IMG/VR virus record: IMGVR_UViG_3300035698_030167 | Location: 12,458 to 76,457 of that record | Direction: 5' to 3' (one strand) | DNA length: 64,000 bases | Origin: a virus | In this document: positions 57,796 through 58,741 of the stretch, one piece after another | Position numbering within the stretch: the first letter of the stretch is position 1 | How the letters are laid out: the number at the start of each line of letters is the position of its first letter | Notes under the pieces: model-generated | Database searches by the model: none | What the model was told of the DNA's origin: nothing | The model's input: the letters and a program-made list of their open reading frames with translations, nothing else | Program-made: the position numbers and the translations under genes

Positions 57796-58741
57796 TCAAC
57801 GCAGAATTCCTTTCCAGCAAGGCCCATCAAAAATAAGCAAAAGTGGTTCGCCTTCTAAAACACTTATGCGAGTAAATTTTCCAGGCTTATAAATGGCAAA
57901 TATTCTTGCCAGTTGTTTTATTCTATCCATCTGTATAATTTTATAGAAAAGCCATGCTTTTTTATTTTTCCAAAAAAGTACAAGCTTAGGCTTTTACTAC
58001 CATCGCTAGCAGGATGATAATAACAAAAAAATTTCTCGAACTTATAAAAAGTAAATAGTTTTGCCAATTCTTTTATTTTATCCATGATGTAAAATACACT
58101 CTATATACTTTACTTCGTTCATTTTGCGTAATATAAAGAGTAAGAAAACCTTTTTTATGAAAAGCAAATAGTTCTACTAGTTGCTTTATTTTATCCATTA
58201 ATGTAAAATACACTCATAATAAGGTCCATAAAAAACAAGCAAAAGCGAATCGTAATCTAAAATATTTACATGAGCAATCATTTCAGGATTTTTTATAGCG
58301 AATACTTTTATAAGCTGGTTTATTTTATTCATTATAATATAAGTTGAAAGAAAGTTGCCCATTTGATAAAATAAACACTTTCCATGAATGTGGAAGATTA
58401 TAGCAATAGCAACTTTTATTATATTTAGCAAATATTTCTGCCAGTTGTTTTATTTTATCCATAATGTAGCTTTTTCATCTATCGTTATAAAAACATATTT
58501 AGGTAAAAATTTTTCTTTTTCTTCTTTAAACATAAAAGTTTTTCCTCTTGAGTTATGATAAACTTTGAAAGAAAAATCTCTTTTATATTTAGCAAATAGC
58601 TCTACTAGTTGTTTTATTTTATCCATCTTGTTTATTTATGATAACATATCTTTTATCACGTCCATTTTGCGGAATATAAAAAGAAAGAAAACCCTTTTTG
58701 TGAAAGGCAAATACTTTTATAAGTTGTTTTATTTTATTCAA
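57796..58741 (-). other. Array of seven overlapping mini-ORFs with M(D/N)KIKQL..(L/I/V)FA N-termini
   Basis: Manual translation: 58619-58741, 58450-58626, 58325-58462, 58198-58332, 58073-58198, 57918-58085, 57796-57930. Confidence 0.85.

What the first reader, a model, noticed from the sequence alone, without database searches (positions are those of the whole stretch)
57796..58741. Array of seven translationally coupled mini-ORFs: constant MDKIKQL..LFA head, hypervariable 30-45 aa tail
Seen: a ~35-bp degenerate repeat recurs seven times at ~110-165 bp spacing. On the - strand each copy starts an ORF, missed by the 60-aa track, that overlaps the previous stop: (L)NKIKQLIKVFAFHKKGFLSFYIPQNGRDKRYVIINKQDG; MDKIKQLVELFAKYKRDFSFKVYHNSRG...TLWIK; MDKIKQLAEIFAKYNKSCYCYNLPHSW...YYNE; MNKINQLIKVFAIKNPEMIAHV...FYGPYYECILH; MDKIKQLVELFAFHKKGFLTLYITQNERSKVYRVYFTSWIK; MDKIKELAKLFTFYKFEK...LYRWIE; MDRIKQLARIFAIYKPGK...FDGPCWKGILR. 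The tails are mosaic: copies 1 and 5 share FAFHKKGFL..YI.QN.R, copies 4 and 7 share LLL.F.GP...IL, and the 15-mer ATGTAAAATACACTC (58087-58101 and 58201-58215) is reused in different frames. The array follows a GIY-YIG gene and a Zn-ribbon gene. Inference: a recombination-diversified library of small proteins in which an amphipathic helix docks on one partner and the tails vary specificity (e.g. anti-defence inhibitors).
Basis: partly seen in the sequence, partly recalled or inferred. Interest (0 to 1): 0.85.

Follow-up and report, generated by a model that had tools for sequence, protein, structure and literature searches.

The report
Small-protein gene family in T4-like phage
The seven overlapping mini-genes are real and belong to a larger, previously undescribed family of small basic proteins (one helix plus three beta strands) that has multiplied by tandem duplication in an uncultured T4-like phage from salt lakes; its function is unknown and nothing suggests it is still diversifying.

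Summary
Seven overlapping mini-ORFs (40-58 aa) lie on the minus strand at 57796-58741, and each starts with a degenerate repeat encoding MDKIKQLxxxFA.

The ORFs look coding. Leu7 uses four synonymous codons. All tails show the phage's codon usage in the annotated frame. A related phage has a syntenic six-copy array with three orthologous pairs (dN/dS 0.37-0.48).

"Hypervariable tail" is an overstatement. AlphaFold gives the same helix plus three-strand fold for two subtypes. The array is also base-for-base identical in five other metagenome contigs.

The mosaicism is real but historical:
- Head types and tail types are discordant.
- One 15-mer is read in two frames.
- The heads show concerted evolution.

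The phage is a deep-branching T4-like virus with Gp23 and a gp21-type protease. The family is dispersed, with about 12 HMM-supported and about 19 plausible members in 78 kb. A third relative carries an eight-copy array with a similar head.

The GIY-YIG gene is a lineage-specific insertion. The Zn-ribbon gene is the conserved neighbour.

There is no Pfam, PHROG, PADLOC, Rfam or fold match.

Best reading: a lineage-specific multigene family of early, translationally coupled accessory proteins. A host-takeover or anti-defence role is inferred, not shown. The closest analogue is the T4 internal proteins with their capsid-targeting head, but the cleavage motif is not conserved here.

The scan had already noted the diverged cluster at 62.7-63.1 kb.

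The parts
58619..58741 (-). Copy 1 (40 aa, TTG start, LNKIKQLIKVFAFHKKGFL...). It overlaps the Zn-ribbon stop by 8 nt. It is a short type with only two predicted strands and is a paralogue of copy 5.
   Evidence: (D2)
58450..58626 (-). Copy 2 (58 aa, MDKIKQLVELFAKYKRDF...TLWIK). Its head is nearly identical to the head of copy 5 (31/33 nt).
58325..58462 (-). Copy 3 (45 aa, ...QLSFNLYYNE). It is the orthologue of the head-truncated first copy (r0) of the related phage.
58198..58332 (-). Copy 4 (44 aa). It is the 'LLLxFxGP' tail type shared with copy 7 and with r5.
58073..58198 (-). Copy 5 (41 aa). It is a chimera: its head resembles copy 2, its body resembles copy 1, and its last 9 residues come from a copy-4-type 3' end read in another frame.
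57918..58085 (-). Copy 6 (55 aa). AF2 predicts helix 2-14 plus three strands. It is the orthologue of r4 in the relative.
57796..57930 (-). Copy 7 (44 aa). It is the orthologue of P0008/r5 (58% aa identity). AF2 predicts a helix plus three strands.
58734..58883 (-). 49-aa CxxC...CxxC Zn-ribbon gene immediately upstream and overlapping copy 1. It is conserved in the same position in the relative (68% aa identity, dN/dS 0.16).
57771..57799 (-). Perfect sigma-70-type promoter TTGACA-N17-TATAAT overlapping the stop of copy 7. It marks the end of the array's transcription unit and the start of the 125-aa gene's unit. It is conserved in the relative.
57374..57751 (-). 125-aa gene (phrog_26039, unknown function) downstream of the array. 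It served as the syntenic anchor for finding relatives.
58873..59703 (-). GIY-YIG + DUF4357 gene (PADLOC candidate PDC-S14). It is absent from the syntenic site of the relative, so it is an insertion and not part of the array system.
10492..10605 (-). Solo family member (37 aa, MEKIEQLIKLFNN...). It overlaps the stop of the upstream 164-aa ORF by 13 nt.
   Evidence: E 3.8e-13
62709..63146 (-). Three overlapping mini-ORFs (45, 57 and 46 aa) with a diverged head xxKKIxxLxxxF. Their membership is plausible but not statistically supported.

Best explanation
The array is a block of seven real, separately translated genes. They belong to a lineage-specific multigene family of small (about 40-60 aa), basic, aromatic-rich proteins with one fold: an N-terminal amphipathic helix (the 'head') followed by two or three beta strands.

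The family expanded in an uncultured, deep-branching T4-like phage. The mechanism was tandem duplication and unequal or illegitimate recombination at or near the conserved heads. Gene conversion keeps the heads alike within a genome. Bodies diverge, and some 3' ends are re-read in new frames.

The genes lie in a plastic region that looks like an early region and carries sigma-70-type promoter matches. They have no Shine-Dalgarno-like motif of their own. They are probably translated one after another by termination-reinitiation, because the head sequence ATG(G/A)ATAA(AATAA) carries the start in one frame and stops in the other two.

Shown: coding signature, fold prediction, synteny, copy-number turnover, mosaicism, and stability in the population.

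Inferred: the proteins are accessory host-interaction factors (takeover, nucleic-acid binding or anti-defence). Their paralogues differ in surface on a common scaffold, as in the multigene families of other large viruses.
For: Coding:
- Leu7 uses CTT, CTA, CTG and TTG. Positions 8 and 10 vary only among I/V/A and V/L/I (read).
- Tail-only codon-usage log-odds are positive in the annotated frame for all 11 window members tested (0.09-0.44 per codon; long genes 0.36 +/- 0.15). They are negative in shifted frames, except for copy 3.

Relatives:
- HMMER against 1.84 billion representatives finds only the phage's own copies plus P0008.
- P0008's contigs carry the order 74-aa gene, Zn ribbon, six copies, promoter, 125-aa gene.
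- By tails, the orthologue pairs are c7/r5, c3/r0 and c6/r4 (z 18, 8 and 5.6). Their dN/dS values are 0.48, 0.43 and 0.37, against 0.16-0.51 for neighbouring genes.

Fold:
- AF2 gives a helix plus three strands for copy 6 (pLDDT 73) and for copy 7 (pLDDT 70).

Recombination history:
- The head nearest to c5 is c2 (31/33 nt), but the body nearest to c5 is c1 (34/39). Head types run a-b-c-a-b-d-c, while tail types pair c1~c5 and c4~c7.
- One 15-mer is read in two frames.
- Residue 2 is D in 5/7 window copies but N or S in 5/5 copies of the relative, despite the orthology of the tails. This points to concerted evolution.

Dispersal:
- Further members lie at window 10605 and at G000 4059-4967, 5333, 7687 and 7872.
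- An eight-copy overlapping array with the head MNxKLxALGKIF lies in a phage with 63% Gp23 identity.

Context:
- Gp23 (E 7e-64) and a gp21-type protease are present.
- A perfect promoter follows copy 7, and there are no promoters inside the repeats.
- There is no SD-like motif before copies 2-7.
- The family is basic (median pI 9.5 against 8.4) and rich in F/Y/W (16% against 12%).
Against: - There is no expression evidence of any kind. Only DNA metagenomes hold the sequence.
- dN/dS of 0.4-0.5 on about 40 codons is weak evidence of constraint.
- Copies 1 and 5 lack the third strand, and the end of copy 5 is a frame-shifted remnant. The first copy in the relative has a frameshifted head. Some copies may therefore be decaying.
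- AF2 confidence is only moderate, and no structural or sequence relative gives a functional handle.
- The link to the eight-copy array of the third phage rests on the head only (hhalign P 9e-4, probability 23%).
- The proposed function is purely by analogy.
Confidence: 0.6

Rival explanations
1. The proteins are capsid-targeted internal proteins. The conserved head would be the counterpart of the T4 capsid targeting sequence (CTS). It would dock the small basic proteins onto the scaffolding core, so that they are packaged with the DNA and injected into the next cell as a panel of anti-restriction or anti-defence proteins.
For: - The phage has the T4 head machinery: Gp23 and a Peptidase_S77 prohead protease. 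The Gp23 propeptide has an ELNE|A site that fits the L-x-E rule.
- T4 IPs are highly basic, diverse defence-countering proteins that share only the ~10-aa CTS MKTYQEFIAE (PMC3012670; PMC8442874).
- The head here has the same hydrophobic spacing (positions 4, 7 and 8).
- Copies 2, 3 and 5 read QL(V/A)E, a possible cleavage site at residue 9.
- The family is basic.
Against: - The Glu of the putative L-x-E site is absent in 4 of 7 copies. It is also absent in all five full-headed copies of the relative and in most dispersed members.
- The bodies are not unrelated proteins but share one fold with the helix.
- The array lies among sigma-70-type promoter matches, with no TATAAATA late-promoter motif on its strand nearby.
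- Virion data are lacking.
Confidence: 0.12
2. The copies are selfish or neutral duplication debris. The head region is a recombination hotspot that keeps generating copies, and most copies have no function and are on their way to loss.
For: - Copies 1 and 5 are truncated. The end of copy 5 is frame-shifted. The head of r0 in the relative is frameshifted.
- Copy number turns over between relatives.
- The family is absent from a 201-kb relative.
- dN/dS is not far below that of a weakly constrained neighbour (0.51).
Against: - All frames stay open.
- Every tail has the phage's codon signature.
- Three orthologue pairs are retained across dS of about 0.5-1.3 with dN/dS below 0.5.
- The beta-strand pattern and the C-terminal motif are preserved.
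- The array shows no polymorphism at all in five contigs.
Confidence: 0.15
3. The mini-ORFs are RiPP precursor peptides. A conserved leader would be recognised by a maturase, for example one of the phage's radical SAM enzymes, and the variable cores would become modified peptides.
For: - A constant N-terminus with a variable C-terminus in tandem small ORFs is the pattern of multi-precursor RiPP loci (established knowledge).
- Two radical SAM genes lie in the window, at 28365-29597 (B12-binding) and 52340-53305.
Against: - No maturase lies in or next to the operon. The nearest radical SAM gene is 4.5 kb away, in another unit, and scores far below every NCBIfam cut-off.
- The head is only about 12-15 aa.
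- There is no leader/core junction motif and no conserved Cys/Ser/Thr pattern.
- The tails are predicted to fold into a sheet with the head.
- Members are scattered on both strands.
Confidence: 0.03
4. The repeats work as nucleic acid (iterons, promoters, or crRNA-like or other RNA units), and the ORFs are incidental.
For: - Seven dispersed direct repeats with fairly regular spacing.
- The heads are conserved at the nucleotide level.
Against: - The substitutions are codon-patterned: synonymous at Leu7, conservative at positions 8 and 10.
- The frames are open and preserved in a relative.
- The sequence between the repeats has a coding signature.
- No promoter-like site recurs within the repeats.
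- There is no Rfam match.
- Repeat identity (62-82%) and variable spacing (113-164 nt) are unlike CRISPR arrays or iterons.
Confidence: 0.03

Closest known systems
T4 internal proteins IPI/IPII/IPIII and the polymorphic IP locus of T-even phages (conserved capsid targeting sequence plus diverse bodies)
   Same: - The host phage is T4-type, with Gp23 and a gp21-like protease.
- Several small basic proteins share a short conserved amphipathic N-terminal head.
- The bodies and the copy number differ between related phages.
- A proposed anti-defence role.
   Different: - The L/I-x-E cleavage site is not conserved.
- The bodies share one fold and are only 30-45 aa.
- The setting looks early, with no late-promoter motif.
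- There is no sequence similarity to MKTYQEFIAE beyond the hydrophobic spacing.
- Packaging is untested.
Hyperplastic regions of T4-like phages and PeSL-mediated shuffling (Comeau, Arbiol and Krisch 2014, PMC4122927)
   Same: - Small accessory genes clustered between conserved blocks.
- Short repeated sequences act as points of recombination, producing indels between close relatives.
   Different: Here the repeated recombination substrate is the coding 5' end of the genes themselves. It is not an intergenic promoter/terminator module. The product is an array of paralogues rather than a swap of unrelated genes.
Gene 'accordions' and multigene families of large viruses, such as T4 tifA-locus amplification against toxIN (10.1101/2022.04.14.488369)
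   Same: - Tandem amplification of a small accessory gene by recombination.
- Copy number differs between lineages.
- Divergence of copies after amplification.
   Different: - The T4 amplification is recent, nearly identical and unstable.
- The copies here are old (30-60% aa identity) and fixed in the population.
- No selective agent is known.
Multi-precursor RiPP loci (conserved leader, variable core)
   Same: Tandem small ORFs with a constant N-terminus and a variable C-terminus.
   Different: - No adjacent maturase.
- A very short head.
- The tails are predicted to fold together with the head.
- No core-type residue pattern.

Membership tests
T4-type internal proteins with capsid targeting sequence | Encoded by a phage with the T4 prohead system (gp23 capsid, gp21 protease, scaffolding core) | tested here: met
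   PF07068 Gp23 E 7e-64. PF03420 Peptidase_S77 E 1.2e-16.
T4-type internal proteins with capsid targeting sequence | A ~10-aa N-terminal CTS ending in a gp21 cleavage site (L/I-x-E), cleaved once | tested here: not met
   L-x-E follows the head only in copies 2, 3 and 5. The position holds K or R in copies 1, 4, 6 and 7, T or K in the five copies of the relative, and other residues in the dispersed members. The CTS sequence is taken from PMC8442874.
T4-type internal proteins with capsid targeting sequence | Otherwise unrelated, highly basic bodies | tested here: inconclusive
   The family is basic (median pI 9.5). However, the bodies share one predicted helix plus three-strand fold.
T4-type internal proteins with capsid targeting sequence | Present in the virion and ejected with the DNA | not testable with these tools
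   There is no virion proteome, and only DNA metagenomes hold the sequence.
RiPP precursor peptides | Co-located maturase or leader-recognition (RRE) protein | tested here: not met
   The operon neighbours are a Zn ribbon, the GIY-YIG/DUF4357 gene and the phrog_26039 gene. The radical SAM genes are 4.5 kb and 28 kb away and score far below the family cut-offs.
RiPP precursor peptides | Core region with modification-type residue pattern and a leader/core junction | tested here: not met
   No conserved Cys/Ser/Thr or GG/GA junction appears in the 24-sequence alignment.
CRISPR-like or other RNA repeat array | Near-identical repeats, uniform spacers, no coding signature; or a match to a known RNA family | tested here: not met
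   The repeats are 62-82% identical with 113-164 nt spacing. Coding log-odds are positive. There is no Rfam hit at E<=1.
Any described protein family (Pfam, PHROG, PADLOC, PDB) | Significant profile or fold match | tested here: not met
   Pfam: no family at E<=1. PHROGs: only E>=0.02. PADLOC: only one hit at E 0.015. Foldseek E>=0.05 and VIA-align Z<=4.6.

The most novel reading that the evidence does not exclude
The conserved head is a targeting or docking tag, analogous to the T4 capsid targeting sequence. It would deliver a panel of 20 or more different small basic proteins into the prohead, or onto one common partner. This clade of T4-like phages would then inject a combinatorial 'first-strike' set of mini-proteins with its DNA, and the arrays would be the evolving repertoire.
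Probability: 0.12. Interest if true: 0.8.

Novelty: new member of a known kind. Interest (0 to 1): 0.45.

Why it matters
Small phage proteins are under-annotated: most of the mini-ORFs fell below the first-stage 60-aa ORF cut-off. They are also the main source of host-takeover and anti-defence factors. This locus shows three things:

- A previously undescribed family makes up a visible share of a T4-like genome, with about 19 candidate genes in 78 kb.
- It documents a clear way of making new small genes. Duplication happens at a coding head that carries a start in one frame and stops in the other two. The heads evolve in concert, and 3' ends are re-used in new frames.
- It offers a natural set of paralogues on one mini-scaffold that could be synthesised and screened.

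It would matter more if the head proved to be a targeting signal. As it stands, this is a well-documented ORFan family without a function, in a phage with no cultured host.

Tried and rejected
- Close DNA relatives in GenBank phages: none.
- tblastn of two members against GenBank phages at E<=1: none.
- IMG/VR scan with the head as a peptide pattern: 270 pattern hits, none confirmed.
- IMG/VR scan with the head as a 25-base degenerate DNA pattern: 0 hits.
- Word-based protein search with 7-member and 24-member profiles: only the phage's own proteins.
- The one non-self 'hit' with 10 stretches (P0007, 1221 aa) is a low-complexity repeat artefact.
- Loci found through the 125-aa neighbour (31 in all, 36-76% identity): none has an array. 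The nearest two carry a different 148-aa gene there, which I read as NADAR-like from the sequence but did not test.
- The 201-kb relative G001 and three fragments: no family member.
- ESM Atlas by features: no usable hit.
- Fold searches in PDB, BFVD, Atlas, AFDB clusters and VIA-align wide: only generic alpha-beta3 look-alikes, with dsRBDs among them at Z 3.5-3.8. These are below noise.
- T4 late-promoter motif TATAAATA: not enriched and not upstream of the array.
- RNA evidence: no RNA run holds the sequence.
- Rfam and Tandem Repeats Finder: nothing.
- Considered and rejected: one long gene with programmed frameshifts. The frame offsets between successive copies are inconsistent (1, 8 and 13-nt overlaps in different frames), and each unit has its own start.

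Full report
**1.

On the minus strand of 57796-58741 there are seven ORFs of 40, 58, 45, 44, 41, 55 and 44 aa. Each begins with a degenerate repeat. The repeat finder reports one family of seven 60-nt copies, 62-100% identical, spaced 113-164 nt apart.

The 20-nt head, allowing up to 3 mismatches, occurs 8 times in the window against 0.11 expected. Each start overlaps the previous stop by 1, 8 or 13 nt. The head ATGGATAAAATAA holds ATG in one frame and TAA in each of the other two, so any upstream frame ends inside it.

The quoted similarities are all present:
- copies 1 and 5 share a 95-nt block at 81% identity;
- copies 4 and 7 share a tail type;
- one 15-mer is read in two frames.

**2. The units are coding**

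Within the heads, Leu7 is written CTT, CTA, CTG and TTG. Phe11 and Ala12 vary only at the third codon position, apart from one Thr at position 12. Positions 8 and 10 vary only among small hydrophobic residues.

I built a codon-usage model from 43 long ORFs of the same genome. It gives positive log-odds in the annotated frame for the tails alone (codons 13 to end) of all 11 window members tested. The values are 0.09-0.44 per codon, against 0.36 +/- 0.15 for real genes. Shifted frames score negative, with copy 3 the only ambiguous case.

No promoter-like site recurs in the repeats. No Rfam family matches. The repeats are too degenerate and too unevenly spaced for CRISPR-like units or iterons.

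**3. Genome context**

The window lies in a 78-kb IMG/VR record estimated to be 38% complete, with about 29% GC. It encodes:
- a T4-type major capsid protein (PF07068, E 7e-64);
- a gp21-type prohead protease (PF03420);
- RNA ligases, RtcB, Dam methylases, ThyX and radical SAM enzymes.

Its Gp23 is only about 26% identical to that of any sequenced phage. This is a deep-branching, uncultured T4-like phage, found only in salt-lake DNA metagenomes.

The array sits in a long minus-strand block of small genes. A perfect TTGACA-N17-TATAAT promoter overlaps the stop of copy 7 and starts the next unit. Copies 2-7 have no Shine-Dalgarno-like motif. Translational coupling through the overlaps is therefore the natural reading. 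It is inferred, not shown.

**4. Relatives**

*Searches that found only the phage itself.* Pfam, PHROGs and PADLOC give nothing significant for the mini-proteins. Word-based searches of 5.8 billion proteins return only the phage's own copies.

*The syntenic relative.* An exhaustive HMMER search of 1.84 billion representatives adds one true relative, P0008 (44 aa). Its contigs (L013-L017) come from another set of metagenomes and show the same neighbourhood:
- the 74-aa gene;
- the Zn-ribbon gene;
- six copies, the first of which has a frameshifted head;
- the same perfect promoter;
- the 125-aa gene.

There is no GIY-YIG gene at that site. The GIY-YIG/DUF4357 gene of the window matches the PADLOC candidate PDC-S14 at E 1e-62 and is an insertion. 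It is not a partner of the array.

*Orthology.* Tail comparisons give three orthologous pairs: c7/r5, c3/r0 and c6/r4. Their dN/dS values are 0.48, 0.43 and 0.37, against 0.16-0.51 for the three flanking genes. The other copies differ between the two phages. Copy number and content turn over, while frames and architecture are kept.

**5. The tails are not hypervariable**

Alignment of 14 and then 24 members shows a common pattern. A helix (K3, L7, F11 nearly invariant) is followed by a short linker, two or three stretches of alternating hydrophobic residues separated by polar turns, and in many copies a C-terminal hxIKLYYxE strand.

AlphaFold2 gives a helix (residues 2-14) plus three strands for two subtypes:
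- copy 6, mean pLDDT 73;
- copy 7, a different tail type, mean pLDDT 70.

The head is therefore most simply the best-conserved element of one small domain.

The array is also invariant in the population. Five contigs from different samples are 99.8-100% identical, and the only two differences lie in the GIY-YIG gene. There is no sign of ongoing diversification.

**6. The mosaic history is real**

- Head similarity and body similarity disagree. The head of copy 5 is closest to copy 2 (31/33 nt), but its body is closest to copy 1 (34/39 nt). Copies 1 and 4 share an identical CTTATAAAAGTATT block, but their bodies differ. Head types run a-b-c-a-b-d-c.
- The last nine residues of copy 5 come from a copy-4-type 3' end read one base out of frame.
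- Residue 2 is Asp in five of seven window copies but Asn or Ser in all five copies of the relative, even in the orthologous pairs. The heads therefore evolve in concert within a genome.

Taken together, this points to unequal crossing-over and gene conversion seeded by the heads. The sample is too small for a formal recombination test.

**7. The array is one part of a dispersed family**

*Within this genome.* An HMM of the family searched against the six-frame translation of the whole record finds:
- a solo copy at window 10605 (E 4e-13);
- two members of a five-ORF tandem run at G000 4059-4967 on the plus strand, at 4387 and 4526 (E about 1e-3). The other three ORFs of the run, with heads of the MNEKIxxLSxLF type, score only E 0.07-3.4;
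- further copies at G000 5333 (E 7e-8) and 7687 (E 2e-5), plus a head-pattern candidate at 7872.

They have the same head spacing and a coding signature but no significant HMM score. That makes about 12 supported and about 19 plausible members in 78 kb.

*In other phages of the clade.* Five phages were found through Gp23 (56-67% identity).
- G002 carries eight overlapping small ORFs, each starting MNxKLxALGKIF. The profile-profile link to the family covers only the head (P 9e-4).
- A 201-kb relative has none.

**8. Function**

Nothing identifies the function. The proteins are basic (median pI 9.5 against 8.4 for the genome's longer ORFs) and rich in aromatic residues. The best fold look-alikes are generic alpha-beta3 units such as dsRBDs, at scores below noise.

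The closest known parallel is the T-even internal-protein system. It comprises diverse, highly basic, defence-countering proteins that share only the capsid targeting sequence MKTYQEFIAE, which is cleaved by gp21 (PMC3012670, PMC8442874). The phage here has that protease, and its Gp23 propeptide shows an L-x-E site. However, the Glu is present after the head in only three of seven copies and in none of the relative's copies. There is also no late-promoter motif nearby. I do not file the family there, and I give that reading about 12%.

A RiPP-precursor reading fails for lack of a maturase and of core features.

The most likely reading is a lineage-specific multigene family of early accessory proteins that arose in a plastic region. 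It compares with PeSL-mediated shuffling (PMC4122927) and with gene amplification in T4 (10.1101/2022.04.14.488369). A host-interaction role is inferred by analogy only. Some copies (1, 5 and r0) may be decaying.

**9. Verdict**

This is a real and cleanly documented feature: a new ORFan family within a known kind of phage genome plasticity. Its 'hypervariable library' and docking-helix model are only partly supported. Interest is moderate.

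Noticed in passing
window 58873-59703 (-): The GIY-YIG + DUF4357 protein matches the PADLOC defence candidate PDC-S14 (E 1.3e-62) and phrog_12629. It is absent from the same site in the related phage, so it is a recent insertion. A hairpin (59739-59720) containing GAAGGAG lies just upstream of its start. 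The only two SNPs among the five population contigs fall in this gene.
   Followed up: partly
window 56465-56814 (-): Two adjacent mini-genes (64 and 51 aa) are paralogues of each other. Both start MEILLYI(V/I)G and have two hydrophobic segments. This is a second, unrelated tandem small-protein pair, probably membrane proteins.
   Followed up: no
L045 (G000:1-12457) 4059-4967 (+), 5333 (+), 7687 and 7872 (-): Further members of the same family lie outside the window. They include a five-copy tandem run with heads of the MNEKIxxLSxLF type, one of which is 95 aa long.
   Followed up: partly
L048 15582-17078 (-): A phage with 63% Gp23 identity has eight overlapping small ORFs (56-83 aa), each starting MNxKLxALGKIF. 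They lie next to an AAA_5-like gene. This is probably a distant branch of the same superfamily.
   Followed up: partly
L014 470-500: In the related phage, the first copy of the array has a one-base insertion in an A-run of its head. It can only start at an internal ATG (MFAKYDKS...). The insertion is the same in three independent contigs.
   Followed up: partly
window 57374-57751 (-); L009-L012, L018-L044: The 125-aa gene after the array (phrog_26039, invariant SGGGM...NQWTG motif) is widespread in very different phages, including a high-GC one (L012). Its function is unknown.
   Followed up: no
window 3548-3750 (+): A Met/Lys-rich low-complexity ORF (MTTKMMKMMK...) overlaps the end of the scaffold-like gene just upstream of gp23. 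It is probably an alternative frame of a repetitive coding stretch.
   Followed up: no
window 28365-29597 (-) and 52340-53305 (-): There are two radical SAM genes, one with a B12-binding domain. Neither reaches any NCBIfam equivalog cut-off. Their substrates are unknown.
   Followed up: partly
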